From Scenedesmus sp. PABB004 (lineage: Eukaryota), in NCBI GenBank assembly GCA_014905635.1, contig JABVCE010000012.1, forward strand, positions 310,001 to 374,000: a DNA stretch of 64,000 nucleotides. The letters run 5' to 3'. This document shows positions 232 through 63,325 of the stretch, one piece after another; position 1 is the first letter of the stretch; the number at the start of each line of letters is the position of its first letter. The notes under the pieces are model-generated. The model worked only from the letters and a program-made list of their open reading frames with translations. It did no database searches and was not told where the DNA came from. The position numbers were made by a program, and so were the translations under genes.

Positions 232-2330
232 GGCGGCGCGGTGCAGGGCCCAGGGCGCAGGCGCCGCCCGGCCGGCTGCCCGCGCCGCCGCCGAGGAGGC
301 CCCCGCGCGCCGCCCCGCCACCCACAGCCGCCTCCCTCAGCGCCTCCCTGCCGCACACGCACACGCGCACGCGCCGGCCGCGCCCCTCACAGCGCCCGCA
401 CGCGCCGCGCCACTGTTCGAATCGCAGCCTGCCCCCACCCGCGCCGCGCCCCTGGCCAGGCGGGGCGAGGACCTGCGGGCGCCTGGTGACTAGGCCGTGC
501 CGCCCAGCGCAGCGCCAGGCGAGCCGCGCGCGCGGGCAGGCGGGGAGGGCAGCGGCGGGCGGGCGCGCCGCGCTGCGCGACGCTTGCTGCGGGCGGCGGG
601 GGCACCGGCACGGCGCGGCGGGCGGGCGTGTGGCGTGGGCCGCCGGGACTGCGCGCCTCGGGCGTCGCTGGCAGGCCCGCCGCCGCGCCGCCGCGCCGGG
701 GGCGGGGGGGGGGGGGGGCGGCGGGCGCCGCGCGCTGCTGCTGCTGCTGCTGCGCTCACGCCGCCCGCGCTCGCCCCCGCTGCTGCCGGTGCCCCGCCCG
801 CTGCTCCCTGGTCGACCGCAGGCTGTCAGGTGGCACCATGTCTGCTGCGCTGGCGGGCAAGCGGCACGCCAGGCCGACGACGAGCGTGCTGGCAGCGGCT
901 GCAGCTGCGGCGGGCGAGGCGCCTGGTGGCGCGGAGGCGGCGCCGAGGTGGGCGCGCTGCTGCTGCTGGTGCCCCCTGGCTGGTGCTGCCTGGAACGGCA
1001 CGCGCTGCCCTCCAGGCACCACCGCCCACAGCAGGCGCCGCCTGACGGCTTGCCGCCTGCCCCGCGCGCCCCGTCCTGCGCCGCCAGCAGCCCGTGAGCG
1101 GAGCTGTCCGACCCCCTCGTGCTCCACGTCCTGAGCTTCTGGTCGCTGGCCCTGCGGGCATGGACCGCCAGGCTGGTCTGCAAGGCGGCGCGCGAGCGCT
1201 TCCGCGGCGCCAGGCGCGTCTCGCTGCGCTGCCCGGAGCTGCCGCTGGCGGCGGTGCAGGAGGCGTGGCGGGTGGTGCCGGGTGACAAGGGGGGGAGAGG
1301 TGGCCAGCGCGCGCGCGGCGTGCGGCGACGTGGCGGGGCTGGCCTGGCTGTGCAGCGCCGGCTGCGACATGGATGACAGTGTGGGCTGGGCAGCAGCGGA
1401 GCACGGCCAGCTTGCCGTGCTGGAGTGGGCGCGCGGCGAGGGGCTGGACCCGGGGGGCGTGTGCAGCGGAGCAGCCGCGGGCGGGCAGTGGGCGGTGCTG
1501 CGCTGGGCGCGCGCGCAGACGCCGCCGGCGCCCTGGGGCAAGTACGTGTCCTCCTGGGCTGCGCTGCACGGCGACCTGGAGATGCTGCGCTGGGGTCGCG
1601 CCCAGGTGGAGCCCGCGCCGTGGGACGGCGAAGCGTGTAGGGTGGCGGCTCTGTCTGGGCAGCTTGAGGTGCTGCGCTGGCTGCGCGCCAACGGCTGCCC
1701 GTGGCAGCGCGCCGAGTGCGAGCGCTTGGCGGACCGGCGCCACGCGGCCGTGGTCGCGTGGATCCAGGCGCAGCCCGAGTGAGCTGTCGGGAGCAGCCTG
1801 CGTGAGCTCACTCGAGTGTGTCGGGAGGGCTGGCAAGCAGCGCGCGCCGGCCAGCTTGCCGTGCTGGAGCGGGCGCGCGGCGAGGGACGTTGACATGCGC
1901 GGCGTGTGTGCGTTCGGTGGGCAACTGTCGGCGCAGGCAGGCGCGAGTGGCGCACGGTCACGTGGTCAACGGCCGCCGATGAGTTTTTAGGAGGGGGGAC
2001 GCCGCTTGACTGCCGTTGTCTGCCGCGCCGGTGCGGCGCCCTGTTGCGCGCTGGTCGGGCTCGGCCGTGTGTTGCGCCGCCCCGTTGCAACCTCGACCGC
2101 GCAAGGACGGAGCCGCGCCTGGCCGGCAAGCGCGGCCAGGGTTTTGGGCTGCGGCGCAGGCTTGACGACCTGGCGGCCGCGGCAGCCGCAGCCGCTGTGC
2201 TGCACACCGCCGCTGTGCTGAGACACAGCCGGCACGCCGCCGCCCCATGCGCACCGCTGCATGCCCCGCCGCGCGCTGCCGCCGGCCGGAGCGCGCGCGC
2301 GCTGGCAACCGGCTGACCGCACGGAGCGCT
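232..2330 (+). repeat. F-box/ankyrin cassette copy U1 (leader + gene + 3' tail)
   Basis: Leader starts GGCGGCG(C)GGTGCAGGGCCCAGGGCGCAGGCGCCGCCCGG, as in the other copies. Tail 1783-~2290 is shared with U7 (36726-~37230). CTGGCAACCGG motif near 2303. Confidence 0.9.
838..1782 (+). pseudogene. F-box-like + ankyrin-like repeat gene, probably disrupted (U1)
   Basis: ATG 838; intron 948-1087 (AG|GTGGGC...CTGAC...CAG). In-frame TGA at 1095-1097 replaces the codon that is CTG in most copies. Frameshift near the G-run at ~1290. Repeats HGQLAVLEW...LRWLRANGCPW are otherwise intact. Confidence 0.75.
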
Positions 2331-2514
2331 CCCGGGCGGGCGGCCCGCCTCTCTCATTCACAACAGTCCCGGGCACCACTGCCGCCACCCGCGCCCGCCG
2401 CCGCGCGCCCCGTACAGCCCCTGGACAGCCTCTGCAGCTGGACAGGCGCGTCGGCACGCCATTCAACTCGACCTGCGTGCCCCAAGCTGCAGCCTCACCA
2501 CCCACCCCGCCTTC

Positions 2515-2575
2515 GCGCTGTGCGCTGTGCGCTGTGCGCTGTGCGCTGTGCGCTGTGCGCTGTGCGCTGTGCGCT
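2515..2575. repeat. (GCGCTGT)n heptamer tandem repeat, ~8 units, abutting the TLK stop codon
   Basis: Read directly from the sequence. Confidence 0.95.
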
Positions 2576-7489: not shown

Positions 7490-9045
7490 CGTGCGCGGGT
7501 CGGCCGGTTGCCAGCACGCGGCACCGCCGCTCGCCCTTGGCCGCCGCCAACCCTCCTCGCGACGCGCGCACTCGACGAGCCTGCCCCCACCACCGCCACC
7601 GTGGCCGCGCTGCAGGCAGCACGACACGCTCCGCACACGCGCACTAGCCGCCAGCTGCGCCCGCACAGCCAGGCGCCAGCTGCGCGCGCGGCCGGCGCAG
7701 CTGGCTGCTCCCGACACCTCACGGTGCGGGCTCGGCCTGGGCGCGCGCCCAGCGCAGCATCTCCAGGTCGCCGCGCCGCGCAGCCCAGGAGCACACGTAC
7801 TTGCCCCAGGGCAGCGGCGGCGTTTGTGCACGCGCCCAGCGCAGCACACCCAGCTGCCCGCCCCTGGCTGCTTCGTCGCACACGTGACTCAGGTCGAGCC
7901 CCTGGTCGCGCGCCCACTCCAGCACGGCGACCTGGCCGGCGCGCACTGCTACCCAGCACACACTGTCAACCATGTCGCACCCGGCGCCGCGCAGCCAGGC
8001 CAGCACGGCCACGTCGCCACATCCCGCGCGTGCGCTGGCCAGCTGCCACTGGTCCAAACTCTGCACCGCCCGCCACGCCTCCTGCACCGCCGCCAGCGGC
8101 AGCTCGGGGCAGCGCAGCGAGACGAGCGTGGCATCGCGGAAGCGCTCGTGCGTCGCCGTGCAGATCAGCCTGGCAGTCCACGCCTGCAGGGCCGGCGGCA
8201 GGAAGCTCAGGACGTGGAGCACGAGGGGCATGGGCAGCTCCGGCAGCGGGCTGCTGGCGGCGCAGGCGGGCGCGCGGGTGCGGCGGTGAGGCAGCGCGCG
8301 GCGCCTGCTATCGTTGGCTGTGGCTCGCTGCTCAGCGCGCCACAGCACCAACAGCAGCGCGCCCACCTCGCCTCCACGTCCTCGCCGCTGGGCGCCTCGC
8401 CCACCGCCGCTGCCGTGGTCGGCCCGGCGCGCCGCGTGTCCGCCGGCGCAGCAGACATGGTGCCACCTGACAGCCTGCGGGCCAGCAGGGAGCAGCAGGC
8501 GGGGCACCGGCAGCAGCGGGCGCGTGCGCGGGCGGCGTGAGCGCAGCCGCAGCAGCGCGCGGCGCCCGCCCCCGCCCGGCGCGGCGGCGCGGCGGCGGGC
8601 CTGCCAGCGACGCCCAGGGCACGCAGGCCCGGCGGCCCACGCCACACGCCCGCCCGCCGCGCACCGCCGGTGCCCCCGCCGCCCGCAGCGGGCGCCGCGC
8701 AGCGCGGCCCGCCCGCTGCTGCCTGCTCCCCGCCTGCGCGCGCGCGCGGCTCGCCTGGCGCTGCGCTGGGCGGCACGGCCTAGTCACCAGGCGCCCGCAG
8801 GCCCGCGCCCCGCCTGGCCAGGGGCGCGCCGCGGGCAGGGGCGGGCGCTGCGCAGCGGCGGCGCGGCGCGTGCGGGAGCTGTGAGGGCCGCGGCCGGCGC
8901 TCGTGTGCGTGTGCGGCAGGGAGGCGCTGAGGGCGGCGGCTGTGGGCGGCGGGGCGGGTCGAGCGGGGGGCCTCCTCGGCGGCGGCGCGGGCAGCCGGCC
9001 AGGCGGCGCCTGCGCCCTGGGCCCTGCACCGCCGCCCGCGTGGCG
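7490..9045 (-). repeat. F-box/ankyrin cassette copy U2
   Basis: Leader ~9045-8459, gene, then CTGGCAACCGGCCGACC motif near 7500. Confidence 0.9.
7719..8458 (-). CDS. F-box-like + ankyrin-like protein, C-terminal repeat deleted (U2)
   Basis: ATG 8458, conserved intron, LPELPMPLVLHVLSFLPP...LICT. Ends AEPAP* joined directly to the TGAGGTGTCGGGAGCAGCC 3' flank also seen in U7. Confidence 0.75.
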
Positions 9046-9189
9046 CGGCTGCCGGGCGGGCGCGGCGTCGCGGCGCGGCTCGCGGCGCGGCGCGGTTACC
9101 GCCACCGCCGCGCGCGTCAACGGCAGCATGCGCGCGGCGCTCAACTCGCCCCCGCCGCACGCCTCCCCCCCCCCCGGCGTCGAGGGCGC

Positions 9190-11701: not shown

Positions 11702-12366
11702 CTCGACAGCCGAGCGGCTAGAGTGCGAGGCGTGGGCCACCGCACGGCTGGGCCAGGACCGGAGCCCGACACGCCAGCAGCAGCGGCGGTGCAGGGCGCA
11801 GCGAGCGCCGCCCGCCCGTCTGCCCGCGCCGTGCCGCCGAGGAGGCTCCCGCGCGCCGCCCACAGCCTCCGCCCTCAGCGCCCTGCCTCGCTCCTTGTCT
11901 CGCACCCACACAAGCGCCGGCCGCGGCCCTCTGTCTTGAAAGCCCGCCGCTGCCGTTCGAATCGCAGCCGCCCGCCCCCGCCCGCGGCGCGCCCCTGGCC
12001 AGGCGGGGCGCGGGCCTGCGGGCGCCTGACGGTCGGGCCGTGCCGCCCAGCGCAGCGCCAGGCGAGCCGCGCGCGCGTGCGGGCGGTGAGCAGGGCAGTG
12101 GCTGGCGGCGGGCAGTGCTGCTGCGCGGCGCCCGCTGCGGGCGGCGGGGGCTGCGGCGGTGCGCGGCGGGCGGGCGTGTGGCGTGGAACGCCGGGTCTGC
12201 GCGCCCCGGGTGCCGCTGGCAGGCCCGCCGCCGCGCCGCCGCGCCGGGGCGGCGGGGGCGGGCGCCGCGCGATGCTGCTGCTGCGCTCACGCCGCCCGCG
12301 CACTCGCGCCCGCTGCCGGTGCCCGCCTGCTGCTCCCTGCTGCCCCGCAGGGCCCCAGGCCGTGCC

Positions 12367-13305
12367 ATGTCTGCTGCGCTGTCAGGTGTCTCGCTCAGCG
12401 ACCTGGCGCTGGCGGTGGACGCGGCATCGAGGTGCGGGCGTGCTGCTGCCGCTGCCGCCCCGGGCCGGCACCCCTGGCCTTTCTATGCCTGGCGCGGCAC
12501 GCGCTGCCCACAAGCGACTGCTCCGGAAGCAGGCGGCGCCTCACCAGTCGCCCAACCGCCGCGCCCCACCCGCGCCGCCAGCAGCACCTGGCGGAACCTG
12601 CCGGAGCCGCTCGTGCTCCACGTCCTGAGCTTCCTCCCGCCGGCCCTGCAGCCGTGGGCCGCCAAGCTCGTCTGCAAGGCGGCGCGCGAGCGCTTCCGCG
12701 GCGCGACGGTCGTCGCGCTGCGCTGCCCCGAGCTGCCGCTGGCGGCAGTGCAGGAGGCGTGGCGGGATTTGCACGGTGGCTGGGTGCAGGAGAGCGTGCT
12801 GGCCGAGGCGCGCGCTGCGTGCGGCGACGTCGCGGGGCTGGCCTGGCTGCGCGTCGCCGGCTGCGACATGGATGACTCTGTGTTCAAAGCAGCAGCGGAG
12901 CACGGCCAGGTCGCCGTGCTGGAGTGGGCGCGCGGCAAGGGGCTGCGCATTCGGCGCTTGTGCGAGTTCGCAGCCGAGGGCGGGCAGCTTGCGGTGCTGC
13001 GCTGGGCGCGCGTGCAGACGCCACCGCTGCGCTGGGGCAACCATGTGTGCTCTGAAGCTGCGCTGCGCGGCGACCTGGAGATGCTGCGCTGGGCGCGCGC
13101 CCAGGCGAAGCCCGCGCCGTGGGACAAGGAGGTGTGCCGGATCACCGCTGTGCACGGGCACCTGGAGGCGCTGCGCTGGCTGCGCGCCAACGGCTGCCCG
13201 TGGCTGCGCGCCGAGTGCGAGAGCGACGCAGCGCGCGGCGGCCACGAAGCCGTGGTTGCGTGGATCCGGGCGCAGCCCGCGGCGGCGGACGATGGCTCTG
13301 ATTGA
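12367..13305 (+). CDS. F-box-like + ankyrin-like repeat protein (U3), apparently intact
   Basis: MSAALSGVSLSDLALAVDAA, intron (AG|GTGCGG), WRNLPEPLVLHVLSFLPP...LVCK, four core repeats, LRWLRANGCPW. Confidence 0.85.
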   Translation: MSAALSGVSLSDLALAVDAASRCGRAAAAAAPGRHPWPFYAWRGTRCPQATAPEAGGASPVAQPPRPTRAASSTWRNLPEPLVLHVLSFLPPALQPWAAKLVCKAARERFRGATVVALRCPELPLAAVQEAWRDLHGGWVQESVLAEARAACGDVAGLAWLRVAGCDMDDSVFKAAAEHGQVAVLEWARGKGLRIRRLCEFAAEGGQLAVLRWARVQTPPLRWGNHVCSEAALRGDLEMLRWARAQAKPAPWDKEVCRITAVHGHLEALRWLRANGCPWLRAECESDAARGGHEAVVAWIRAQPAAADDGSD

Positions 13306-14147
13306 CGTCGATCATCTACTTGGACGGGGACTAGGATTGGGGCGAGGCAGGCTCGAGGCTTGGTGCGTGCGCGGGGCGCTGCCTACAGCGTGTGGTGCGC
13401 GCGTGCGTGGCGAGGGAGAGGGAAAAGGGAAGCTGGCGGCGGCGAGGCGGCGCGTGCTGGCAACCGGCCGACCGCGCACGCAGCGCGCCTGGGCGGGTTG
13501 CCCTCTTGCGCGACCACCCGGCGCTGGCAGCGGTGGCACGTCGCCGCGCCGTGCCCCGCAGCGGCCGCACGCGGGCGGCGGTGCAGGCCCAGGGCGCAGG
13601 CGCCGCCCGGCCGGCTGCCCGCGCCGCCGCCGAGGAGGCCTCCCGCGCGCGCCGCCCCGCCGCCCACAGCCGCCGCCCTCTCAGCGCCCCTGCCGCACAC
13701 ACGCACACACGAGCGCCGGCCGCGGCCCTCACAGCTCCCGCACGCGCCGCGCCGCCGCTGCGCAGCGCCCGCCCCCGCCCGCGGCGCGCCCCTGGCCCGG
13801 CGGGGCGCGGCCGTGCGGGCGCCTGGTGACTGGATCGTGCCGCCCAGCGCAGCGCCAGGCGAGCCGGGCGCGCGGGCGGGGAGGGCGGCAGGCGGGCCGC
13901 GCTGCGCGGCGCCTGCTGCGGGCGGCGGGGGCACCGGCGGTGCGCGGCAGGCGGGCGTGTCGCGTGGACCGGCGGGTCTGCGCGCCTGGAGCGCCGCTTG
14001 CAGGCCTGCCGCCGCGCCGCCGCGCCGGGGCGGGGGCCGGGCGCCGCGCGCTGCTGCTGCTGCGCTCACGCCGCCCGCGCGCTCGCCCGCTGCTGCCGGT
14101 GCCCCGCCTGCTGCTCTCTGGTGACCCGCAGGCTGTCAGGTGGTACT

Positions 14148-15245
14148 ATGTCTGCTGCGCCGGCGGGCAAGCGGCACGCCGGGCCGACCACGCACGCGGG
14201 GGTGGGCGAGGCAGCGGCAGCAGGCGAGACACCGGCTGGGGCAGAGGCGGCGCCGTGGTGGGTCCGCTGGCTGCTGCTATTAGTGCACCCTGGCTGGTGC
14301 TGCCTGGCACGGCACGCGCTGCCCACAAGCCACCACCGCCGGCAGCGCGCGCCGCCTGACAGCTTGCCGCCTGCCCTGCGCGCCCCGCCCCGCGCCGCCA
14401 GCAGTCCGCTGCCAGAGCTGCCGCAGCCCCTCGTGCTCCACGTCCTGAGCCTCCGGCTGCCGGCCCTGCAGGCGTGGGCCGCCAGGCTGGTCTGCAAGGC
14501 GGCGCGCGAGCGCTTCCGCGGCGCCACGGACATCTCGGTGCGCTGCCCCGAGCTGCCGCTGGCGGCGGTGCGGGAGGCCTGGCGGGCGGCGCAGGGTGAA
14601 GGGTGGGAGCAGCAGCGGCGGCTGGCCAACGCGCGCGCGGCGAGCGGCGACGTGGCGGGGCTGGCCTGGCTACACAGCGCCGGCTGCGACATGGGCAGCG
14701 ATGTGGGTTACACAGCCGCATTACACGGCCAGCTCGCCGTGCTGAAGTGGGCGCGCGACGAGGAGCTCAACCTGCGGGGCGTGGGCCGGGCAGCGGCGGA
14801 GCACGGCCAGCTCGCTGTGCTGGAGTGGGCGCGCGGCGAGGGGCTGGACCTGGGGGGCGTGTGCCACGCAGCAGCCGCGAGCGGGCAGCTGGGCGTGCTG
14901 CGCTGGGCGCGCGCGCACACGCCGCCGCTGCCCTGGGGCGACCGGGTGTGCTTCTGCGCTGCGGCGCGCGGCGACCTGGAGGTGCTGCGCTGGGCGCGTG
15001 CCCAGGAGGAGCCCGCGCCGTGGGGCGAGCTCACGTGCGAGGCGGCGGCTCGCTCCGGGCAGCTGGAGGTGCTGCGCTGGCTGCGCGCCAACGGCTGCCC
15101 GTGGTGGCGCCGTGTGTGCGAGCGCGTGGCGGTATGCAATTGCCACGAGGCCGTGGTCGCGTGGATCCGGGCGCAGCCTGACTCGCCGGACGAGGGCGGC
15201 GGGGCGAATCGGCTGTGGTGGGTGGCGGCCTCTGTAGGCTGTTGA
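14148..15245 (+). CDS. F-box-like + ankyrin-like repeat protein (U4), five core repeats
   Basis: ATG 14148, conserved intron, LPELPQPLVLHVLS, extra HGQLAVL repeat. Confidence 0.85.
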   Translation: MSAAPAGKRHAGPTTHAGVGEAAAAGETPAGAEAAPWWVRWLLLLVHPGWCCLARHALPTSHHRRQRAPPDSLPPALRAPPRAASSPLPELPQPLVLHVLSLRLPALQAWAARLVCKAARERFRGATDISVRCPELPLAAVREAWRAAQGEGWEQQRRLANARAASGDVAGLAWLHSAGCDMGSDVGYTAALHGQLAVLKWARDEELNLRGVGRAAAEHGQLAVLEWARGEGLDLGGVCHAAAASGQLGVLRWARAHTPPLPWGDRVCFCAAARGDLEVLRWARAQEEPAPWGELTCEAAARSGQLEVLRWLRANGCPWWRRVCERVAVCNCHEAVVAWIRAQPDSPDEGGGANRLWWVAASVGC

Positions 15246-29595: not shown

Positions 29596-30071
29596 AGTGG
29601 CTCGAGGCAGAGGGCTCAACAGGGCTCAACAACAGGGCTCAACAGGGTTCAAGGGTTCGAGGGCGCGCGCGCGGGGAGAAGGAAAGGTCCTGGGAGGGGG
29701 CGCTGGCAGCGGCGGCGGCGAGGGGCACTGGGCAGGGCGCTGCGGCGGCCAGCGGGGCAGGGGGGGGAGCAGCGGCCGGCCGGCGGGGCAGGGCCGCGAC
29801 GCGGCGCGGAGGGAGCGAGGGGCGGAGCGAGGGAGCTGGGGGCGCGCTGCGCGGCACGGGCGCCCGGCGCGGGCGCTGCTGGACTGAACCCCACACGGCG
29901 GCCGGGCGCAGGGGCGCGTCGCTTTTTCTGGCTCGGGAGCCTCCCGGCCGGCGCGCGCGCGGCGCGCGCTGAGTAAAAACGCTCGCGGAGGGTCCATGTC
30001 ATGGCGCCGTTGCTGGGTGCTGGCGGCGGCGGCACGTCGCCGCGCCGCGCCCACCCGGCAGCGGCGCCACG

Positions 30072-32380: not shown

Positions 32381-32488
32381 TCAGGCCGCCGCTGCTGCCG
32401 CTGCCGGCGGCCGGCCGCCGCTGCTGCCGCTGCCGCCGGGGCGCCGACGCCCGCCGCCCTGCTGCTCGCGCGTGGCCAGGGCCGCGCG

Positions 32489-34917: not shown

Positions 34918-35009
34918 CGTGTCGTCCGGCCATGTGCGCCGGCGGTGCTGGGCGGTGCAACGTGCTGTCATCACAGCGAGAGCGCGACCACGCACCCGCC
35001 CGGCGGGCG

Positions 35010-37230
35010 GGGCGGCGGTGCAGGGCCCAGGGCCCAGGCGCCGCCCGGCCGGCTGCCCGCGCCGCCGCCGAGGAGGCCCCCGCGCGCACCGCCCCGCCGC
35101 CCACAGCCGCCGCCCTCTCAGCACCCCTGCCACACGCACACACACGCACGAGCGCCGGCCGCGGCCCTCGCAGTTCCCGCACGCACCGCGCCGCCGCCGC
35201 CCAGCACCCGCCCCCGCCCGCGGCGCGCCCCTGGCCAGGCGGGGCGCGGACCTGCGGGCACCTGGTGACTGGATCGTGCCGCCCAGCGCAGCGCCAGGCG
35301 AGCCGGGCGCGCGGGCGGGGAGGGCGGCGTGCGGGCGGGCGCGCTGCGCGGCGCCCGCTGCGGGCGGCGGGGGCACTGGCGGTGCGCGGTGGGCGGGCGT
35401 GTAGCGTGGATCGGCGGGTATGCGCGCCCCGGGCGCCGCTGGCAGGCCCGCCGCCGCGCCGGGGCGGGGGCGGGCGCGGCGCGCTGCTGCTGCCGCGCTC
35501 ACGCCGCCTGCGCGCTCGCCCGCTGCTGCCGCCGCTCCGCCTGCTGCCCCCTGGTGGTCCGCAGGCTGTGAGGTGGCACCATGGCGTCTGCGCCGGCGGG
35601 CAAGCGGCACGCCGGGCCGACCACGAGCGCGCACGCGGCCGCAGCGGCGGCAGGCGAGGCACTGGCGGGGGCCGAGGCGGCGCCGAGGTGGGCGCGCTGC
35701 TGCTGCTGCTGCTGCTGGTGCCCCCTGGCTGATGCTGCCTGGCGCGGCACGCGCTGCCCACGAGCCACCACCGCCGGCAGCAGGCGCCGCCTGACCGCCC
35801 GCCGCCCGCCCCGCTCGCCCTCGCTCCGCGCCGCCAGCAGCCTGTGGGCGGAGCTGCCTGAGCCCCTCGTGCTTCACGTCCTGAGCTTCCTGCCGCCGGC
35901 CCTGCAGGCGTGGGCAGCCAAGCTGGTCTGCAAGGTGGCGTGCGAGCGCTTCCGCGGCGCCACGGTCGTCTCCCTGCGCTGCCCCGGCCTGCCGCTGGCG
36001 GCGGTGCAGGAGGCCTGGCGGGCGGTGCTTGCTGCCAAGCAGGGTGACAAGTGGCTGAAGCGGCAGCGGGTGACCAAGCGGCAGGAGCAGTGGCAGCGGC
36101 GGGCGGTGAAGCATCACAAGCGGCAGCAGTGGCGGCTGGCCAACGCGCGCGCGGTGTGCGGCGACGTGGCGGGGCTGGTCTGGCTGCGCGGCGCCGGCTG
36201 CGACATGGATGACATGTCTTTGAACGACGGCGTGCGCTACACAGCAGCGCGCGCCGGCCAGATCGCCGTGCTGGAGTGGGCGCGCGGCGAGGGGCTGGAC
36301 CTGCGGTATGTGTGCTACGAAGCAGCGCGCGCCGGCCAGGTCGCCGTGCTGGAGTGGGCGCGCCGCAAGGGGCTGTACCTGGGGCACGTGTGCTGCCATG
36401 GAGCAGCCTCTGGCGGGCAGCTGCATGTGCTGCGCTGGGCGCGCGCGCAGACTCCGCCGGCGCCCTGGGGCGATCGGGTGTGCTCCTGCGCTGCGCAGCG
36501 CGGCGACCTGGAGATGCTGCGCTGGGCGCGCGCGCCCAGGCTGAGCCCGCGCCGTGGGACGAGGAGGCGTGCGAGGCGGCGGCCGGAAACGGGCAGCTGG
36601 AGGCGCTGCGCTGGCTGCGCGCCAACGACTGCCCGTGGGACCGCGCCGCGTGCGAGCGCACGGCGGCCAGGCCGTGGCGTCGCGACGAGGCCATGCTCGC
36701 GTGGATCCAGGCGCAGCCCGAGTGAGGTGTCGGGAGCAGCCTGCGTAAGCTCACTCGAGTGTGTCGGGAGGGCTGGCAAGGAAGCAGGAAGCATCGCGCA
36801 CCGGCCAGCTTGCCGTGCTGGAGCGGGCGCGCGGCAAGGGACGTTGACGTGCGCGGCGTGTGTGCGTTCGGTGGGCAGCTGTCGGCGCAGGCAGGCGCGA
36901 GTGGCGCACGGTCGCGTGGGTCCATGGCCGCCGATGAGTTTTAGGAGGGGGGACGCCGCTTGACTGCCGCTGTCTGCCGCGCCGGTGCGGCGCCCTGTTG
37001 CGCGCTGGTCGGGCTCGGCCGCGTTGGGCCGCCCCGTTGCAACCTCGACCGCGCAAGGACAGAGCCGCGCCCGGCGGCCGTCGAGGCTAGTGTTTTGTCG
37101 CTGCGGCGGAGGCTTGAACGACCTGGCCGCCGCCGCCGCTGTGCTGCACACCGCTGCTCTGCTGCAGACACAGCCGGCTCGCCGCCGCCCCACGCGCACC
37201 GCTGCATGCCCCGCCGCGCGCTGCCGCCGA
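35010..37230 (+). repeat. F-box/ankyrin cassette copy U7 with 3' tail shared with U1
   Basis: Leader starts ~95 bp after the QTRT2 stop. Tail 36726-~37230 matches 1783-~2290. Confidence 0.9.
35581..36725 (+). pseudogene. F-box-like + ankyrin-like gene (U7) with +2 frameshift near 36530
   Basis: Extra CG in a GCGCGC run shifts the last repeat into another frame (real mutation or assembly error). Expanded basic linker KQGDKWLKRQRVTKRQEQW... Confidence 0.7.
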
Positions 37231-37260
37231 CCGCCCGCCGCTCCTTCATGGCCGGCGACC

Positions 37261-39357: not shown

Positions 39358-39481
39358 CTCGTGCGTGTGGGGTGGCCCCTCGGGCGGCTCGGGCGGCCCC
39401 GCGTGCGCGGGCCGATCACGGGCGGCACGCAAAAGCGCGTGAGTGGAAGTGACAACTCACTCAGGCTGTGGAAGTGACACC

Positions 39482-39648
39482 TCACTCGGGCTGCGCCGTG
39501 ATCCACGCGACCACCGCCTCATGGCCCTTGCGCGCCACCTCGTGCTCGCACGCGCCGCGCTCCCACAGGCAGCCGTTGGCGCGCGGCCAGCGCAGCGCCT
39601 CCAGCTGCCCGGGCGGCGCCTGCGCCCTGGGCCCTGCACCGCCGCCCC
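39482..39648 (-). repeat. Internally deleted cassette U8 (leader start fused to last repeat and stop)
   Basis: Junction ...CTCCAGCTGCCCGG|GCGGCGCCTGCGCCCTGGGCCCTGCACC; spacer motif (GTTGCCAG) at ~39730. Confidence 0.85.
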
Positions 39649-39878
39649 GCGTGGCGCTGCTGCCGGGCGGGCGCCGAAGCGTGTGCGCGCACCACCCAGG
39701 CCGCGTCGGTGCCGTGCGCGTTCAGCCGGTTGCCAGCACCGACGGCCGCTCGCCAGGTCAGATCAGCTTGAACACGGTGCTTTCAAAACACCGGTGCTTC
39801 CAAAACACTGCAGTGATCTCCGGAAGGCGGCTGCCCGTTCAGCTGCAGGCGCCAGCTCCCCCCCCCCCGGCCGTGCGC

Positions 39879-44311: not shown

Positions 44312-45201
44312 GCTCCCCGCCGGCGCCTGGGCCCGCGCCGTGGCGACGGCCCACCCTGTAGGCGCTCACCAGCAGCGCTCGTCGCAGACAGGCTGACGGC
44401 GGGGGCAGTCGCGGGCGGGCGGCGTGAGCGCAGCAGCAGCAGCAGCGGCGCGCCGCGCCCGCCCCCGCCCCGGCGCGGCGGCGCGGCGGCAGGCCTGCCA
44501 GCGGCGCCCGGGGCGCGCAAGCCCAGCATTCCACGCCACACGCCCACCCGCCGCGCACCGCCGGTGCCCCCGCCGCCCGCAGCGGGCGCCGAGCAGCGGC
44601 GCGGCCCGCCCGCCGCCGCTGCCTGCTCACCGCCTGCCCGCGCGCCCGGCTCGCCTGGCGCTGCGCTGGGCGGCACGTGCTAGTCACCAGGCGCCCGCAG
44701 GCCCGCGTCCCGCCTGGCCAGGGGCGCGCCACGGGCGGGGGGCGGGCGCTGGGTGCGGCGCGGTGCGTGCGGGCGCTGTGTGGGCCGCGGCCGGCGCTCG
44801 TGTGTGCGCGTGGCAGGGGGGGGGGGGGGGGGGCTGAGAGCGGCGGCTGTGGGCGGCGGGGCGGCGCGCGCGGGGGCCGTCCTCTGCGGCGGCGAGGGCA
44901 GCCGGCCGGGCGGCGCCTGCGCCCTGGGCCCTGCACCGCCGCCCGCGTGCCGCCGCTGCCGGGCGGGCGCGACGTGCTGCCGTCAGCACAGTGACGGCGC
45001 GGGAGTGCGACCCGCCCAGGTGCACTGCGTGCGCGGTCGGCCGGTTGCCAGCACGCACCGCCTCGCCGCTGCCAGCTTCCCTCTCCCTCTCCCTCGCCAC
45101 GCACGCGCACCATGCCGCAAGCAGCGCCCGCACGCACGCGCGCCCAGCCACGGGCCTGCCTCACCTCGCCCTGATCGTAGTCCGCGTCCGAGCTGTGAAG
45201 G

Positions 45202-46132
45202 TCAGAAATCGCGAGAGTCGTCGTCCAGCGACGCGGGCTGCGCCCGGATCCACGCGACCACGGCCTCGTGGCCACGCATGGCCGCCCAGTTCTCGCACTC
45301 GCGACGCCACCACGGGCAGCCGTTGGCGCGCAGCCAGCGCAGCACCTCCAGGTGCCCGTTCGCGGCCGCCATGCAGCACGCCCTGCAGTCCCACGGCGCG
45401 GGCTCGGCCTGGGCGCGCAGCCAGCGCAGCAGCTCCAGGCCGGGGCAGTGCGCAGCGAAAACACACTCCAGGCCGCCCCAGGGCAGCGGCGGCGTCTGCG
45501 CGCGCGCCCAGCGCAGCACACCCAGCTGCCCGCCCGTGACTGCGTTGGTGCACGCGTCCCACAGGTCCAGCCCGTTGTCGCGCGCCCACTCCAGCACGGC
45601 GACCTGGCCGAGCGCCGCTGCTGCTTCGCACACAGAGTCATCCATGTCGCAGCCGGTGCCGCGCAGCCAGGCCAGCCCCGCCACGTCGCCGCACGCCGCG
45701 CGCGCCTCTGTCAGCCGCCTCTGCTGCTCCCACCCTTCACCCTGCAACGCCCGCCAGGCCTCCTGCACCGCCGCCAGCGGCAGCTCGGGGCAGCGCAGCG
45801 AGACGTCCGTGGCGCCGCGGAAGCGCTCGTACGCTGCCTTGCAGACCAGCTTGGCGGCCCACGCCTGCAGGGCCGGCGGCAGGAAGCTCAGGACGTGGAG
45901 CACGAGCGGCTCGGGCAGCTCTGGCAGCGGGCTGCTGGCAGCGCGGGCGGTGAGCGGCCGGGCGGCATGGGTGGCGTGGCGGGCCGAGGTGCGCGCAGCA
46001 GCCGCTGGTTCATTCGCAGCGCCCCCTGGCCAGGCAGCACCGGCCATGAGACGCCTCGCCACACGCGCACCTCGCCTCTGCGACCTCCGCCAGCATCAGA
46101 CCGCTGAGCGAATGCTCTACCAGCGAGGCCAT
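45202..46132 (-). CDS. F-box-like + ankyrin-like repeat protein (U10), apparently intact
   Basis: MASLVEHSLSGLMLAEVAEA, phase-2 intron (AG|GTGCGC), LPELPEPLVLHVLSFLPP, four core repeats. Confidence 0.85.
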
Positions 46133-46764
46133 GGCGCCACCTGGGGGCCATGCAGGCCACCAGGGAGCAGCAGGCGGGGCGCCGGCCACAGCGGGGCGAG
46201 CGCGCGGGCGGCGTGAGCGCGGCAGCCGCAGCAGCGCGCGGCGCCCGCCCCGGCGCGGCGGCGCGGCAGCGGGCCTGCCAGCGGCGCCAGGGGCGCGCAG
46301 GCCCGGCGTTACACGCGACATGCCCGCCCGCCGCGCACCGCCGGTGCCCCCGCCGCCGCCAGCGGGCGCCGCGCAGTGCTGACCGGCCTCCGCTGCCCTC
46401 CCCGCCTGCCCGCGCGCCCGGCTCGCCTGGCGCTGTGCTGGGCAGCACGACCTAGTCACCAGGCGCCCGCAGGACCGCACTCCGCCTGGCCAGGGGCGCG
46501 CCGCGGGCGGGGGCGGGCGCGGGGCGGCGGCGGTGTGTGCGGGCGGGCGCTGTGAGGGCCGCGGCCGGCGCTTGTGCGTGTGCGTGTGTGTGGCAGGGGC
46601 GATGAGGGCAGCGGCTGTGGGCGGCGGGGCGGCGCGCGCGGGAGGCCTCCTCGGCGGCGGCGCGGGCAGCCGGGCGGCGCCTGCGCCCTGGGCCCTGCAC
46701 CGCCGCTCACCCACCGAGGTCGCTGCAAGCGCCGGCAACGATAGGAGGTTCAACCCCTCCCAGC

Positions 46765-48053
46765 TCACTCGGGCTGATCCCAAATCCACAAAAACACGGC
46801 CCCGTGGCGACCTGCCGATGCTTCCATCATGCAGTCGCCGCGCCGCCAGGGGCAGCCGTTGGCACGCGCCCAGCGCAGCACGTCCAGGTGCCCGAAGCGA
46901 GCCGCGCGCCAGCACACCCACTTGTCCCACGGCGCGGGATCGGCCTGGGCGCGCGCCCAGCGCAGCATCTCCACGTCGCCGCGCGCCGCAGCCTCCCAGC
47001 ACATGCCGCCCCAGGGCAGCGGCGGCGTCTGCGCGCGCGCCCAGCGCAGCACATCCCAGTGCCCACCGTAGGCTGCTCCGCTGCACACGTGCTCCAGGTC
47101 CAGCCCCTGATCTCGCGCCCACTCCAGCACGGCGAGGTGGCCGCGCCGCGCTGCTGCGGAGCCCACACCGCCCATCCAACAGCCGGTGCCGTGCAGCCAG
47201 GCCAGCCCCGCCACGTCGCCGGCCGCCGCGCGCGCCCCCGGCAGCTGCAGCTGCCACCATGCTGGCCAGAACTGTGCCGCCAGCCGCGCCTCCAGGACCG
47301 CCGCCAGCGGCAGCTCGGGGCACCACAGCATGTCATATGACATGGCGCCGCGGAAGCGCTCGCGCGCCGCCTTGCAGACCAGCTTGGCAGTCCACGCCTG
47401 CAGGGACGACGGCAGGAAGCTCAGGACGTGGAGCACGAGCGGCTGTGGCAGCTCTGGCAGCAGGGTGCTGGCGGCACGGGCGGGGCGCGGGCAAGCGGGC
47501 GGGCGGCGGGCGGTCAGGCGGCGCCTGCTGCCGGCGGTGGCGGCTCGTGGGCAGCGCGTGCCGCGCCAGGCAGCACCAGCCAGGGGGCTCCAGCAGCAGC
47601 AGCTGCCCCACGGCAGCACCAGCCAGGGGGCTCCAGCAGCAGCAGCTGCCCCACCTCGGCGCCGCCTCTGCCCCCGCCGGTGCCTCGCCTGCTGCCGCTG
47701 CGGCCGCCGCCCGCGCGCTCGTGGTCGGCCCGGCGTGCCGCTTGCCCCCCGGCGCAGCAGACAAGGCACGGCCTGGGCGCCTGCGGGGCAGCAGGGAGCA
47801 GCGGGCGGGGCATCGGCAGCAGCGGGCGTGAGCGCGCGGGCGGCGTGAGCGCAGCAGCAGCGGTGGCGCCCATCCGACAGCGCGTGCCGCGCCAGGCAGC
47901 ACCGGCCAGGGGTCACCAGCGGCAGCAGCAGCGGACCCACCTCGACGCCGCCTCTGCCCCAGCCGGTGCCTTGTCCGCCGCCACCGCTGCGGCAGCCGCC
48001 CGCGCGCGCGTGGTCGGCCCGGCGTGCCGCTTGACCGCCGGCGCAGCAGACAT
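46765..48053 (-). CDS. F-box-like + ankyrin-like repeat protein (U11), with duplicated exon-1 region
   Basis: ATG 48053. A second exon-1-like segment (ATG changed to TTG) lies at ~47860-47650. Acceptor near 47466; ends WIWDQPE*. Confidence 0.75.
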
Positions 48054-48740
48054 GGCGCCACCTGACAGCCTGCAGGCCACCAGGGAGCAGCAGGCGGGGC
48101 GCCGGCAGCAGCGTGCGAGCGCGCGGGCGGCGTGAGCGCAGCAGCAGCAGCGCGCGGCGCCCGCCCCCGCCCCGGCGCGGCGGCGCGGCGGCGGGCCTGC
48201 CAGCGGGGCCCGAGGCGCGCAGACCCGGCGGCCCACGCCACACGCCCGCCCGCCGCGCATCGCCGCAGCCCCCGCCGCCCCGCAGCGGGCGCCGCGCAGC
48301 GCGGCCCGCCCGCCGTCGCTGCCCTCCCCGCCCGCCCGCGCGCCCGGCTCGCCTGGCGCCGCGCTGGGCGACACGATTTAGACACCAGGCGCCCGCAGGC
48401 CCGCGCCCCGCCTGGCCAGGGGCGCGCCGCAGGCGGGGGCGGGCGCTGGGCGGCGGCGCGGCGCGTGCGGGCGCTGTGAGGGCCGCGGCCGGCGCTCGTG
48501 TGTGTGCGTGTGTGGCAGGGGTGCTGACGGCGGCGGCTGTGGGCGGCGGGGCGGCGCGCGCACAGGGGGCCTCCTCGGCGGCGGCGGGGGCAGCCGGCTG
48601 GGCGGCGCCTGCGCCCTGGGCCTGCACCGCCGCCTGGTGCGGCCGCTGCCGGGCGGGCGCGGCGCCTGGGCCTGGCGGCAGCACGGATGCGTGTGCGCGC
48701 GCACGGCCCACCAAGGCGCTTGCTCGCGGCATGCGCGTCC

Positions 48741-56817: not shown

Positions 56818-56857
<40 letters not shown>

Positions 56858-56983: not shown

Positions 56984-57392
56984 CGCTGCGGCTGGCGCCG
57001 CGCTAGGGCGCCGCGTGCGCGGGGCGTGGCAGGCCTCGTGCCATGGGCCTTGGCGGCTCGGCTCGCGAGTGCAGGTGGCGGCGCTCGGTCAACGCTCGGC
57101 GCGACTGCGTAGCTGGCCGCGCGTTTCCGCGGTGTACGTGGGATGCAGCGGGGCGGCCCAACCGCTGAACGGAGCCGGTGCGGCGCGGCGGCGTTGGAAG
57201 CGTCGCGGCGCGGCGCGTTCTTTGTTGTTCTGCGCCCGCCGCAGGCGTGGCCTGGTCCCTGCGTCCGGCCGCCGCTCTCCTTCACTTGACGAGCGCACGC
57301 TCGCCGCTGGCCGCTCCCGACCTGCCGCCGCTTCAAACGCGCGCCGCTGCTGCCGCTGCTCCGCTGCTGCGCTGGTGCGCCCCGCCGCGGCC

Positions 57393-60287: not shown

Positions 60288-60328
60288 GGCGCGGGCGTGC
60301 GCGGTTGCAACTGGCGCGCGCCTGTCCC

Positions 60329-61272
60329 TCACTCGGGCTGCGCCCGGATCCACGCGGCCACGGCCTCGTGGCCACGGCCCGCCGCAGACTCGCACCAGTC
60401 GCGCCGCCAGGGGCAGCCGTTGGCGCGCAGCCAGCGCAGCGCCTCCAGGTGCCCGCGGTCAGCCGCCGCCCAGCACACCCACTCGTCCCACAGAAAGCCG
60501 TTGGCGCGCAGCCAGCGCAGCATCTCCAGGTCGCCAAGCCGCGCAGCGTCGTAGCACACGTGCGTGCCCCACGGCAGCGGCGGCGTCTGCGCGCGCGCCC
60601 AGCGCAGCACCGCCAGCTGCCCGCCCTCGGCTGCTGCGTTGCACACGCCCCCCAGGGCCAGCCCCTCGCCGCGCGCCCACTCCAGCACGGCGAGCTGGCC
60701 GTGCTCCGCTGCTGCCCAGCACACGCTGTCCATGTCGCAGCCGGCGCCGCGCAGCCAGGCCAGCCCCGCCACGTCGCCGCACGCCGCGCGCGCCCCTGCC
60801 AGCTCCCTCTGCTTCTCGTCACCCTGCACCGCCCGCCAGGCCTCCCGCATCGCCGCCAGCGGCAGCTCGGGGCAGCGCAGCGCGACGACCGTCGCGCCGC
60901 GGAAGCGCTCGCGCGACGCCTTGCAGACCAGCTTGGCGGCCCACGCCTGCAGGGCCAGCGGCAGGAAGCTCAGGACGTGGAGCACGAGCGGCTCGGGCAG
61001 CTCCGGCAGCGGGCTGCTGGCGGCGCGGCGCGGTGCGGTGGGGCGGGCGGGCGGGCGGCGGGCGGTCAGGCGGCGCCTGCTGCCGGCGCCAGGCAGCACT
61101 AGCCGGGGGTGCCGCGCCGGGCAGCACTAGCCGGGGGTTGCCAGCAGCAGCAGCAGACCCACCTCTGCGCCGCCTCCGCCCCAGCCGGCGCCTCGCCCGC
61201 CACCGCTGCGGCCGCCCCGCGTGCGCTCGTGGTCGGCCCGGCGCGCCGCTTGACCGCCGGCGCAGCAGACAT
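60329..61272 (-). CDS. F-box-like + ankyrin-like repeat protein (U12), apparently intact
   Basis: ATG 61272, intron AG|GTGGGT. Two terminal-type modules: LRWLRANGFLW and LRWLRANGCPW. Confidence 0.85.
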
Positions 61273-62102
61273 GGTGCCGCCTGACAGTCTGCGGGCCACC
61301 AGGGAGCAGCAGGCAGAGAGCCGCCAGCAGTGGGCGAGCGCGTGGGCAGCGTGAGCGGCAGCAGCAGCGCGCGGCGCCGCGCCCGCCCCGGCGCGGTGGC
61401 GCGGCGGCGGGCCTGCCAGCGACGCCCGGGGCGCGCAGGCCCGGTGGACCACGCGACATGACCGCCCGCCACGCACCGCCGGTGCCCCCGCCGCCCGCGG
61501 TGGGCGCCGCGCAGCGCGGCGCGCTGCTGCTGCCCTCCCCCGCGCGCGCGGCTCGCCTGGCGCTGCGCTGGGCGGCACGGCCTAGTCACCAAGAGCCCGC
61601 AGCGCGTCGCCCCGCCTGGCCAGGGGCGCGCCACGGGCGGGGCCGGGCGCGGGGCGGCGCGGCGCGTGCGTGCGGCGATGTGCGGGCCGCGGCCGGCGCT
61701 CGAGTGTGTGTGCGTGTGGCAGAGGCGCTGAGGGCGGCGGCAGTGTGGGGCGGCGGGGCGGCGCGCATAGGGGGCCTCCTCGGCGGCGGCGCGGGCAGCC
61801 GGCCAGGCGGCGCTCGCTGCGCCCTGGGCCCTGCACCGCCGCCCCCGCGCCGCCGCTGCCGGGACGGCGCGGCGCGTCGACGTGCTGCCGCCGCCAGCGC
61901 CCAGCGACGGCGCGGGAGTGCGACCCGCCCAGGTGCACTGCGCGCGCGGTCGGCCGGTTGCCAGCGCTTGCCGCCCTCGCCGTCGCCAACTTCCCTCCCC
62001 TCTCCCTCGCCACGCACGCGCGCACCACCACGACGCTGGCAGCGCCCCCCGCACACGCACGCGCGCCCAGCCACGGGCCTGCCTCGCCTCGCCCTGGCCG
62101 CG

Positions 62103-63325
62103 CTAGGCGGCGCGCTGCGCGTCGCCCTCGAGGGCGACGTCCGAGTCCCCCTCCCCCACCCCGTCCTCGTCCTCCTCCCAATCGTCCGAGTCCTCCCCCA
62201 CCCCGTCCTCGTCCGCCTCCCCATCGCCCGAGCCCCCCTCCCCCTCCCCTCCTCCCCCTCCCCCTCCCCCTCCCCCTCGTCCTCGTCCTCCCCCTCGTCC
62301 TCGTCCTCATCATCCGCGAACAAGCTGAGGAAGGCAAGGAAACGGGCAATCTCAGGGTGGTCGTCCGCCGACACGGGCTGCGCTCGGATCCACGCGACCA
62401 CGGCCTCGTGGCCAAGGACAAACGCCCCGTCCTCGCACTGCATGCGCTGCCACGGGCAGCCGTTGGCACGCAGCCAGCGCAGCGCCTCCAGGTGCCCGTG
62501 CGCAGCCGCCAGCCTGCACACCTCCTTGTTCCACGGCGCGGGCTCGTCCTGGGCGCGCACCCAGCGCAGCATCTCCAGGTCGCCGCGCTCCGCAGCGAAC
62601 CTGCACACCCAGTCCCCGTCCCACGGCACCGGCGGCATCTGCGCGCGCGCCCAGCGCAGCACATCCAGCTGCCCGCCCGCGGCAGCTCCGCAACAAGCGT
62701 TCCACAGGTCCAGCCCCTCGCCGCGCGCCCACTCCAGCACGGCGAGCTGGCCGGCGCGTGCTGCCTTGTGGACCCCGCCGTGCACGTTGCAGCCGGCGCC
62801 GCGCAGCCAGGCCAGCCCCGCCACGTCCCCGCACGCAGCGCGCGCCCCGGCCAGCCGCGACTGCTGCCGCCCATCACCCTGCAACGCCCGCCACGCCTCC
62901 TGCACCGCCGCCAGCGGCAGCTCGGGGCAGCGCAGCGAGACGACCGTGGCGCCACGGAAGCGCTCGTGCGCCGCCTTGCAGACCAGCTTGGGGCACCACG
63001 CCTGCAGGGCCAGCGGCAGGAGGTCCAGGACATGGAGCACGAGCGGCTCGGGCAGCTCCGGCAGCGGGCTGCTGGCGGCGCGGCGGGGCGAGGGCGAGCG
63101 GGGCGGGCGGAGGGCGGTCAGGCGCGCCTGCTGCCGGCGGTGGTGGTTCGTGGGCAGCGCGTGCCGCTCCAGGCAGCATCAGCCAGGGGGGCCCCAGCAG
63201 CAGCAGCAGCGGCCCCAACTCGGCGCCGCCTCGGCCCCCGCCGGTGCCTCGCCTGCTGCCGCTGCGGCCGCGCATGCGCTCGTGGTCGGCGCGGCGTGCC
63301 GCTTGCCCGCTGGCGCAGCAGACAT
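62103..63325 (-). pseudogene. F-box-like + ankyrin-like gene (U13) with mutated splice donor and acidic tail
   Basis: Donor is AG|TT at 63218 instead of AG|GT, and the unspliced frame stops within the intron. Long D/E/G tail with frameshifts in G-runs. Confidence 0.6.

What the first reader, a model, noticed from the sequence alone, without database searches (positions are those of the whole stretch)
838..63325. Copies are patchwork mosaics, suggesting segmental gene conversion
Seen: shared variants give conflicting groupings. U4 and U10 share the linker QGEGWEQQRRL; U1 and U2 share PWGKYV; U4 and U7 share PWGDRVC; U3 and U10 share an atypical exon 1 (SLSxLxLA); U4, U5 and U7 share the leader variant GACTGGATCG; U1 and U7 share a 3' tail of about 500 bp. 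Inference: ectopic exchange shuffles modules, and broken copies (U1, U7, U8, U13) might act as sequence donors.
Basis: partly seen in the sequence, partly recalled or inferred. Interest (0 to 1): 0.7.

Follow-up and report, generated by a model that had tools for sequence, protein, structure and literature searches.

The report
Algal F-box/ankyrin gene cluster, patchwork copies
A very GC-rich green-alga region holds about ten fast-evolving copies of a small ankyrin-repeat gene that have swapped stretches of sequence with one another, which is a well-known behaviour of clustered gene families rather than a new mechanism.

Summary
The window (about 79% GC) matches Scenedesmus sp. PABB004: a public protein equals the spliced product of one copy. 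It holds 10 gene units, two solo upstream modules and one 3' fragment. Each unit has a conserved ~600-bp upstream module (UP) and a two-exon F-box-like/ankyrin gene.

Four of them fit one tree. Only two conflict: the A4/A10 linker, probably an ancestral state, and the A1/A7 tail.

Formal tests still show mosaicism:
- A4 and A5 have a near-identical UP (8/528 mismatches, 278 bp exact), against 156/987 in the rest of the unit.
- A5 and A13, which are inverted relative to each other, share an exact 93-bp patch.
- A1 and A7 are 91-96% identical in the 3' tail, against 82-87% elsewhere.
- Triplet tests give 11 of 120 triples at p<0.001; no-recombination simulations give at most 2.

Segment-tree conflict is only moderate, and PHI within exon 2 is not significant.

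My reading is short-tract ectopic gene conversion on top of birth-and-death duplication. The idea that pseudogenes act as donors is untested. This is a new member of a known kind, of modest interest.

The parts
170..2290 (+). UP module about 170-800; ATG 838; donor 948; exon 2 from 1088; AQPE* stop at 1780-1782; 3' tail to 2290. Pseudogene: in-frame TGA at the third codon of exon 2 and a frameshift in the linker.
7710..9110 (-). Unit A2 (U2). ATG 8458; exon 2 from 8253. The last ankyrin repeat is missing, and the reading frame ends after 177 exon-2 codons.
11764..13305 (+). Unit A3 (U3). Type-II short exon 1 (SLSDLALA); ATG 12367; intact. Its spliced product equals public protein P0002 (261 aa).
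13514..15245 (+). Unit A4 (U4). ATG 14148; exon 2 14402-15245; extra 78-bp ankyrin unit (array 14724-14913); looks intact.
13557..14115 (+). A4 side of the A4/A5 near-identical tract. Partner is 30058-30617. The longest exact run is 278 bp, from 13760.
30004..31765 (+). Unit A5 (U5). ATG 30650; exon 2 from 30916; looks intact. Carries the 93-bp patch 30844-30936 that is identical to A13.
31875..32466 (+). Solo UP module A6f (U6). It lies 23 bp upstream of the ATG (32489) of a queuine tRNA-ribosyltransferase-like gene on the same strand.
34983..37233 (+). Unit A7 (U7). ATG 35581; long lysine/glutamine-rich linker insert; frameshift near 36540; AQPE* stop at 36723-36725; 3' tail shared with A1.
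39440..39660 (-). Fragment A8f (U8). Only the last repeat plus the AQPE* stop context.
44384..44985 (-). Solo UP module A9f (U9). It ends about 75-100 bp upstream of the ATG (44311) of a short-chain dehydrogenase gene on the same strand.
45202..46707 (-). Unit A10 (U10). Type-II short exon 1 (SLSGLMLA); ATG 46132; looks intact.
46765..48665 (-). Unit A11 plus A12f (U11), read as one unit. UP 48665-48150. A 289-bp tandem duplication of exon 1 and part of the intron spans 47612-48148: the first exon-1 copy starts with ATG at 48053, the second with TTG at 47764. Exon 2 runs from 47467.
60329..61913 (-). Unit A13 (U12). ATG 61272; looks intact; AQPE* stop. 'LRWLRAN' occurs twice (60419 and 60500), which suggests exchange between repeats inside the gene.
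62352..63916 (-). Unit A14 (U13). ATG 63325. The splice-donor position reads TT instead of GT at 63218. The reading frame has no stop before 61589.

Best explanation
This is a lineage-specific, locally expanded family of small genes. Each encodes an F-box-like N-terminus plus 4-6 ankyrin repeats, probably a substrate receptor for an SCF ubiquitin ligase. The copies are scattered in both orientations among housekeeping genes.

The copies arose by repeated local duplication (birth-and-death, with pseudogenes and fragments). Since then they have exchanged short stretches, about 90-550 bp, by ectopic homologous recombination, mostly non-crossover gene conversion.

The ~600-bp upstream module and the 3' tail behave as exchangeable end modules. 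The coding body evolves fast (dN about equal to dS) and also changes by gain and loss of 78-bp ankyrin units.

Shown: the copies, the tracts and the statistical mosaic signal. Inferred: conversion as the mechanism, F-box function, and any benefit of the shuffling.
For: - A4/A5 upstream module versus the rest: 8/528 mismatches against 156/987. The ratio is 0.10 against a pooled 0.71 (binomial p 1e-13; 28 pairs tested, next best p 0.007).
- The same tract has 1 mismatch in 163 polymorphic sites (global permutation p 0/1000) and a 278-bp exact run, against a median longest run of 44 bp over 66 unit pairs.
- The A4/A5 intron region is about 83% identical and exon-2 dS is 0.16. The gene bodies are therefore old and the UP identity is recent.
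- A5/A13 share an exact 93-bp patch that includes a shared 7-bp insertion. It is flanked on both sides by sequence where A5 groups with A7 instead. The two copies are inverted and about 30 kb apart. That fits non-crossover conversion.
- A1/A7 tail is 95.6% and 91.2% identical, against 82-87% upstream (Fisher p 1e-4 against UP).
- Triplet tests on six type-I copies: 11/120 at p<0.001, and 9 pass Bonferroni.
- On the re-aligned concatenation: 16/120, against a maximum of 2 in 40 no-recombination simulations.
- The signal persists without UP (10/120 against a maximum of 1) and in exon 2 alone (5/120 against 0).
- Segment trees reject each other in 9 of 12 AU comparisons.
Against: - PHI is not significant within exon 2 (346/2000), within UP (377/2000) or over ATG-to-ankyrin (607/2000). 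Its whole-unit significance (0/2000) could come from regional rate differences.
- No conflicting clade pair is rejected reciprocally. A4+A5 is never rejected (p-AU 0.12-0.37).
- The concatenated tree is rejected only by UP (0.020), not by the other three segments (0.057-0.165).
- Many tract-scan hits in exon 1 and the intron are inflated by the very divergent A3, A10 and A2.
- The 5' edge of the A4/A5 tract coincides with the end of homology, so only its 3' edge is a true internal boundary.
- Donors may lie outside the window.
- No reads were available to exclude assembly or polishing homogenisation.
Confidence: 0.7

Rival explanations
1. The chimeras were made at birth. Unequal crossing-over between misaligned copies created each new copy as a single-breakpoint hybrid, with no later conversion.
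For: - Several copies stand in tandem (A3>A4, A14>A13, A11>A10). Spacer-plus-UP blocks are shared between arrays.
- A7 looks like one 5' part joined to one 3' part: UP and an extra repeat like A4/A5, stop and tail like A1.
Against: - The A5/A13 93-bp patch is bounded on both sides and joins inverted copies.
- The A4/A5 UP identity would need a crossover 16.5 kb apart without loss of the genes in between.
- Adjacent tandem copies are not the most similar ones.
Confidence: 0.12
2. There was no exchange. A rapid, star-like radiation with much homoplasy at 79% GC, retained ancestral states and convergent ankyrin consensus residues gives the look of mosaics.
For: - Segment trees are poorly resolved (many bootstraps below 60).
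- PHI within regions is not significant.
- The GWEQQ linker occurs in outside paralogs.
Against: - Simulations on one tree with site-rate heterogeneity never approach the observed triplet counts.
- A 278-bp exact run and a ten-fold drop in divergence confined to one pair and one module cannot be homoplasy.
Confidence: 0.08
3. Assembly or polishing artefact: reads from paralogs were mixed, which homogenised parts of copies in the published contig.
For: - The repeats are 80-90% identical over 1.5 kb, the range where short-read polishing can mis-assign reads (general knowledge).
- No read set of the source could be laid.
Against: - The A4/A5 tract still carries 8 differences and ends sharply at a module boundary that the solo UP copies also share.
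- The mosaic signal is spread over many copies.
- A few small metagenome contigs match parts of A3 and A4 with 0-1 differences, but none spans a junction.
Confidence: 0.05

Closest known systems
Interlocus (ectopic) gene conversion and birth-and-death evolution in clustered multigene families, such as plant F-box and S-locus F-box genes or resistance-gene clusters (recalled from general knowledge, not from a call)
   Same: Clustered paralogs include pseudogenes and fragments. Short tracts of raised identity occur between non-adjacent copies. Segment histories disagree. The coding surface evolves fast.
   Different: The host is a chlorophyte alga with a 78.5% GC, 39.8-Mb genome (PMC12571836, table passage). 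The clearest tracts are the non-coding end modules rather than the coding body. No population or cross-species data exist.
F-box plus ankyrin-repeat substrate receptors of SCF ubiquitin ligases
   Same: The domain order is an N-terminal F-box-like motif (LPEPLVLHVLSFL...) followed by an ankyrin solenoid. Homologues score for F-box-like in 8 of 25 and for F-box in 4 of 25.
   Different: The window copies score below Pfam's cut-off for F-box-like (18 bits against 24.3; seen in 2 of 5 copies). The N-terminal region of the model is of low confidence (pLDDT 58-72). Skp1 binding is untested.
Lineage-specific ankyrin-repeat gene families in green algae (Chloropicon; PMC12301720, passage read)
   Same: Large species-specific ankyrin-repeat families are reported there. 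Chloropicon proteins appear among the homologues here.
   Different: That paper lists the families only. In the passages I read it makes no analysis of mosaic structure or exchange.

Membership tests
Ankyrin-repeat proteins | Tandem 33-residue helix-turn-helix repeats recognised by ankyrin profiles | tested here: met
   Ank_4 scores above its cut-off in 5 of 5 window copies scanned and in 25 of 25 alignment members.
Ankyrin-repeat proteins | Ankyrin solenoid fold | tested here: met
   AlphaFold2 model of A10 exon 2: mean pLDDT 83.8, at least 90 in the repeat region. The best Foldseek matches are ankyrin-repeat domains and DARPins, TM 0.45-0.54.
F-box proteins (SCF substrate receptors) | F-box motif recognised by a curated profile | tested here: inconclusive
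   F-box-like E 0.002, 18 bits against a cut-off of 24.3, in 2 of 5 window copies. Among 25 aligned homologues, 8 match F-box-like and 4 match F-box.
F-box proteins (SCF substrate receptors) | Binding to Skp1 | not testable with these tools
Interlocus gene conversion in a multigene family | Pair-specific tracts of raised identity with internal boundaries, significant against permutation | tested here: met
   A4/A5, A5/A13 and A1/A7. A5/A13 is bounded on both sides. A4/A5 has only a 3' internal boundary.
Interlocus gene conversion in a multigene family | Different segments support different trees | tested here: inconclusive
   9 of 12 cross-segment AU tests reject, but constraint tests are one-directional. 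The concatenated tree is rejected by 1 of 4 segments.
Interlocus gene conversion in a multigene family | Mosaic signal beyond a no-recombination null with rate heterogeneity | tested here: met
   16/120 triples at p<0.001 against at most 2 in 40 simulations. The signal persists without UP and in exon 2 alone.
Interlocus gene conversion in a multigene family | Non-reciprocal copying with an identifiable donor and acceptor | not testable with these tools
   This needs outgroup orthologues or other strains. None was found.
Templated diversification from silent pseudogene donors (chicken immunoglobulin or trypanosome VSG type) | One-way transfer from silent copies into an expressed acceptor | not testable with these tools
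   No RNA run was listed, and direction cannot be read. At least five copies look intact, so no single acceptor is evident.

The most novel reading that the evidence does not exclude
The cluster works as a diversity generator for a receptor repertoire. Intact F-box-like/ankyrin genes are under diversifying pressure (dN/dS about 1.2). They are repeatedly re-patterned by short templated conversion from neighbouring copies, pseudogenes and fragments included. The ~600-bp upstream module is a portable promoter/leader cassette that is swapped as a unit and has also come to sit directly in front of two housekeeping genes.
Probability: 0.08. Interest if true: 0.75.

Novelty: new member of a known kind. 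Interest (0 to 1): 0.35.

Why it matters
This is a concrete, testable example of ectopic exchange inside one of the most GC-rich eukaryote genomes known. GC-biased gene conversion is a leading explanation for such base composition (general knowledge, not tested here).

The cluster also flags a fast-evolving, largely unannotated receptor-like family. Only one of the copies was returned as a public protein. The family sits in a compact genome otherwise noted for few repeats and many family contractions (PMC12571836, passages read).

The solo upstream modules in front of unrelated genes offer a simple test of promoter capture.

Tried and rejected
- Whole genome of the window: none is held, so paralogs outside the window could be seen only as proteins.
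- Sequencing runs: no RNA holder was listed, and there were only three DNA metagenome runs with small shares.
- Laying those runs gave mostly short GC-rich matches from other organisms. Five small contigs (151-227 bp) matched parts of A3 and A4 with 0-1 differences. None spans a tract boundary.
- Metagenome scan with a conserved 26-base UP block: 0 matches.
- Rfam over the whole window: 0 families. tRNA scan: 0. UP is therefore no known RNA.
- Earlier notes of this scan: nothing by place or by sequence.
- Literature. A search for 'PABB004' found 15 papers, and I saw the listing of 10. A search for F-box + ankyrin repeat + gene conversion + tandem found 6 papers (listing seen). A search for green alga, ankyrin repeat, F-box and gene family expansion (papers holding at least 3 of these 4 terms) found 96 papers, and I saw the listing of 10. 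No listed title or abstract describes this family or its mosaicism.
- First triplet run on all ten copies: set aside, because the very divergent exon 1 and intron of A3, A10 and A2 make almost any triple look significant.
- Selection alone as the cause of the A4/A5 contrast: rejected, because the intron is as diverged as the exons.
- A3/A10 'shared exon 1': exon 1 is about 68% identical, but the intron is no better than random (20-23 matches per 50 columns). It is an old shared type, and the 99% bootstrap may be partly long-branch attraction.
Full report
WHAT IS THERE

The window is 73-85% GC throughout. Self-BLAST (112 HSP pairs of at least 150 bp) and a multiple alignment define a repeated unit of about 1.6-2.1 kb. 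Each unit has four parts:
- a conserved upstream module of roughly 600 bp (UP);
- an ATG and a short exon 1;
- an intron of about 113-190 bp (GT...CAG);
- an exon 2 that encodes an F-box-like motif, a variable linker and 4-6 ankyrin repeats.

I count 10 gene units, here A1, A2, A3, A4, A5, A7, A10, A11/12f, A13 and A14. There are also two solo UP modules (A6f, A9f) and one 3' fragment (A8f).

A11 and A12f are best read as one unit. It carries an internal 289-bp tandem duplication of exon 1 and part of the intron (47612-48148).

Housekeeping genes lie between the units:
- a protein kinase;
- a diphthamide-synthesis gene;
- carbamoyl-phosphate synthase;
- a TGT-like gene;
- a TauE-like exporter;
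- a serine carboxypeptidase;
- a short-chain dehydrogenase.

ORGANISM AND FAMILY

The best protein homologues are from Scenedesmus sp. PABB004. P0002 (261 aa) equals the spliced product of A3: all 261 residues align to 12367-13302, with the intron as the only gap. A table passage in PMC12571836 gives that genome as 39.8 Mb, 78.5% GC and 1.3% repeats.

Evidence for the domains:
- Ank_4 scores above its cut-off in 5 of 5 copies scanned.
- F-box-like is below its cut-off (18 bits against 24.3) and is seen in 2 of 5 copies.
- Among 25 aligned homologues, 8 match F-box-like and 4 match F-box.
- An AlphaFold2 model of A10 exon 2 (pLDDT 83.8) is an ankyrin solenoid, with a less confident helical N-terminus.

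State of the copies:
- A3, A4, A5, A10, A13 and probably A11/12f look intact.
- A1 has an in-frame stop and a frameshift.
- A7 has a frameshift.
- A2 lacks its last repeat.
- A14 reads TT at the splice-donor position.

Exon-2 dN/dS by Nei-Gojobori has a median of 1.20 and a range of 0.89-1.74 over 21 pairs of 7 copies. Extreme GC3 may depress dS, so I read this only as fast protein evolution.

The A1/A7 tail is confirmed.

Taken as splits, four of them fit one tree: {A1,A2}, {A4,A7}, {A4,A5,A7} and {A3,A10}. All 6 incompatible pairs, out of 15, involve either the A4/A10 linker or the A1/A7 tail.

The linker state 'GWEQQ' is also present in two paralogs outside the window (P0045, P0001). It is therefore most simply an ancestral state lost elsewhere.

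A3 and A10 share a short exon-1 type at about 68% identity. Their introns are unalignable.

One more conflicting character turned up. There are two C-terminal types: AQPE* in A1, A7, A8f and A13 (and, from the alignment, A11), and AQPxxxD with an acidic tail in A3, A4, A5, A10 and A14. This splits A7 from A4 and A5, with which it shares UP.

FORMAL TESTS

Tracts:
- A4 and A5 are 97.8% identical in UP, against 78-91% in the other segments.
- The 50-column profile shows 46-50 matches per window from 13557 to about 14104, then 35-46 in most windows (two gap-affected windows fall to 29 and 34).
- Mismatches are 8/528 in UP against 156/987 in the rest. The ratio is 0.10 against a pooled 0.71 (binomial p 1e-13). 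Among the other 27 pairs the smallest p is 0.007.
- A GENECONV-like scan of 8 copies (587 polymorphic sites) gives A4/A5 one mismatch in 163 polymorphic sites, global p 0/1000.
- The same scan gives A5/A13 no mismatch in 45 polymorphic sites over 93 bp, global p 0/1000. In the ten-copy run this is 0 in 49, p 0.021.
- The longest exact runs are 278 bp for A4/A5 and 93 bp for A5/A13. All other pairs are 82 bp or less, with a median of 44 over 66 pairs.
- A1/A7 are 95.6% and 91.2% identical in two tail blocks, against 82-87% upstream.
- Other scan hits in exon 1 and the intron (A7/A14, A7/A11, A11/A14, A1/A7) are inflated. Most polymorphic sites there come from the divergent A3, A10 and A2.

PHI:
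- 0/2000 for the whole unit (8 or 9 copies).
- 607/2000 for ATG-to-ankyrin, 377/2000 for UP alone and 346/2000 for exon 2 alone.
- The whole-unit result may partly reflect cleaner sites in UP.

Trees:
- Segment trees are star-like. The firm clades are A4+A5 (100) and +A7 (89) in UP, A3+A10 (99) in exon 1/intron, and A5+A14 (84) in the ankyrin part.
- Cross-segment AU tests reject in 9 of 12 comparisons; the F-box/linker segment rejects none.
- Constraint tests (10 clades by 4 segments) reject, for example, A5+A14 in UP (5e-5) and A4+A10 in UP (2e-4). A4+A5 is never rejected (0.12-0.37), so no conflict is reciprocal.
- The concatenated tree is rejected by UP only (0.020). The other three segments give 0.057, 0.10 and 0.165. 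The summed gain from separate trees is 41.5 lnL.

Triplets (a permutation test on the 3SEQ idea):
- Six type-I copies, 120 ordered triples, 20,000 permutations: 11 at p<0.001, 54 at p<0.05, and 9 pass Bonferroni.
- On the re-aligned concatenation: 16 and 61 of 120. In 40 AliSim alignments that mimic the data on one tree with site rates, the maxima are 2 and 12.
- Without UP: 10 and 49 of 120, against maxima of 1 and 11 (25 simulations).
- Exon 2 alone: 5 and 39, against 0 and 9.
- UP alone: 2 and 22 of 112, against 1 and 15.
- Eight copies, exon 2: 14 and 106 of 336, against 0 and 20 (12 simulations).
- Some exon-2 signal comes from a local oddity of A13, where 'LRWLRAN' stands in two consecutive repeats. 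This looks like exchange between repeats inside one gene.

MECHANISM

The A4/A5 gene bodies are old (dS 0.16; intron about 83% identical), while UP differs by 1.5%. One module was therefore overwritten recently.

The A5/A13 patch has diverged sequence on both sides and joins inverted copies 30 kb apart. A crossover there would invert the interval, so non-crossover conversion is the simple reading.

Adjacent tandem copies are not the most alike: A3/A4 UP is 84% identical and A13/A14 is 83%. Exchange is therefore not simply between neighbours.

Birth-and-death duplication is evident from the pseudogenes and fragments, and from spacer-plus-UP blocks shared between arrays. 78-bp ankyrin units have been gained in A4, A5 and A7.

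THE UPSTREAM MODULE

UP is less diverged than the rest (pooled 13.4% against 18.8%). It alternates 30-bp blocks of 6-9% and 20-25% diversity. That points to constraint on specific elements as well as to homogenisation.

Both solo modules end just before the ATG of an unrelated gene on the same strand:
- A6f ends at 32466, and a TGT-like gene starts at 32489.
- A9f ends at about 44384-44411, and a short-chain dehydrogenase starts at 44311.

Their 3' ends correspond to A4 positions 14082-14094. This is within about 30 bp of the 3' edge of the A4/A5 tract (14104-14115) and about 35-65 bp before the A4 ATG.

I infer that UP is a discrete promoter/leader module. No RNA data could be found to test this.

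WHAT STAYS OPEN
- Direction of transfer, and so the pseudogene-donor idea.
- The role of paralogs outside the window.
- Assembly or polishing error.
- Expression.
- F-box function.

Supplements of the papers were not consulted.

VERDICT

This is an ordinary kind of multigene-family evolution in an unusual genome: a new member of a known kind.

Noticed in passing
31875-32489 and 44311-44985: Two solo copies of the upstream module lie directly 5' of unrelated genes on the same strand. One is a TGT-like gene (ATG 32489); the other is a short-chain dehydrogenase (ATG 44311). This may be promoter capture, or loss of the ankyrin gene body.
   Followed up: partly
47612-48148: A 289-bp tandem duplication of exon 1 plus part of the intron makes A12f and A11 one unit. 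The first exon-1 copy keeps ATG; the second reads TTG. The two repeat copies are less alike (about 86%) than the second is to A14 or A7 (about 90%).
   Followed up: partly
60419-60520: In A13 the motif LRWLRAN stands in two consecutive ankyrin repeats. Other copies have LRWARAQ in the first of the two. This suggests a short exchange between repeats within the gene.
   Followed up: partly
61589-63178 (minus strand): The A14 reading frame has no stop codon after its acidic tail. It runs on through the spacer into the upstream module of A13. Its splice-donor position reads TT.
   Followed up: no
7650-7730: The premature stop of A2 sits in about 20 bases that resemble the family's normal stop context (as in A1, A7 and A8f). 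A2 may therefore have lost its last repeat by an internal deletion, not by a point mutation.
   Followed up: partly
14724-14913, 36231-36394, 31250-31330: 78-bp ankyrin-unit duplications sit at different places. A4 has an extra unit early in the array. A5 and A7 share an extra unit at a second position.
   Followed up: partly
whole window: Of the intact-looking copies, only A3 was returned as a public protein in the length range searched (154-490 aa). Outside paralogs include gene models fused to a second copy (P0001) or to an rRNA-processing protein (P0045). The family seems poorly annotated.
   Followed up: partly
48700-60270: This stretch is 83-85% GC and has very long open frames on both strands (for example 50724-54617 minus, 1298 aa; 55833-59882 plus, 1350 aa). 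None has a Pfam match at E 1e-4.
   Followed up: no
2517-2575; 700-716; 44817-44835: There is a 7-base microsatellite (GCGCTGT-type) downstream of A1. Long G or C homopolymer runs lie inside the upstream modules of A1 and A9f.
   Followed up: no
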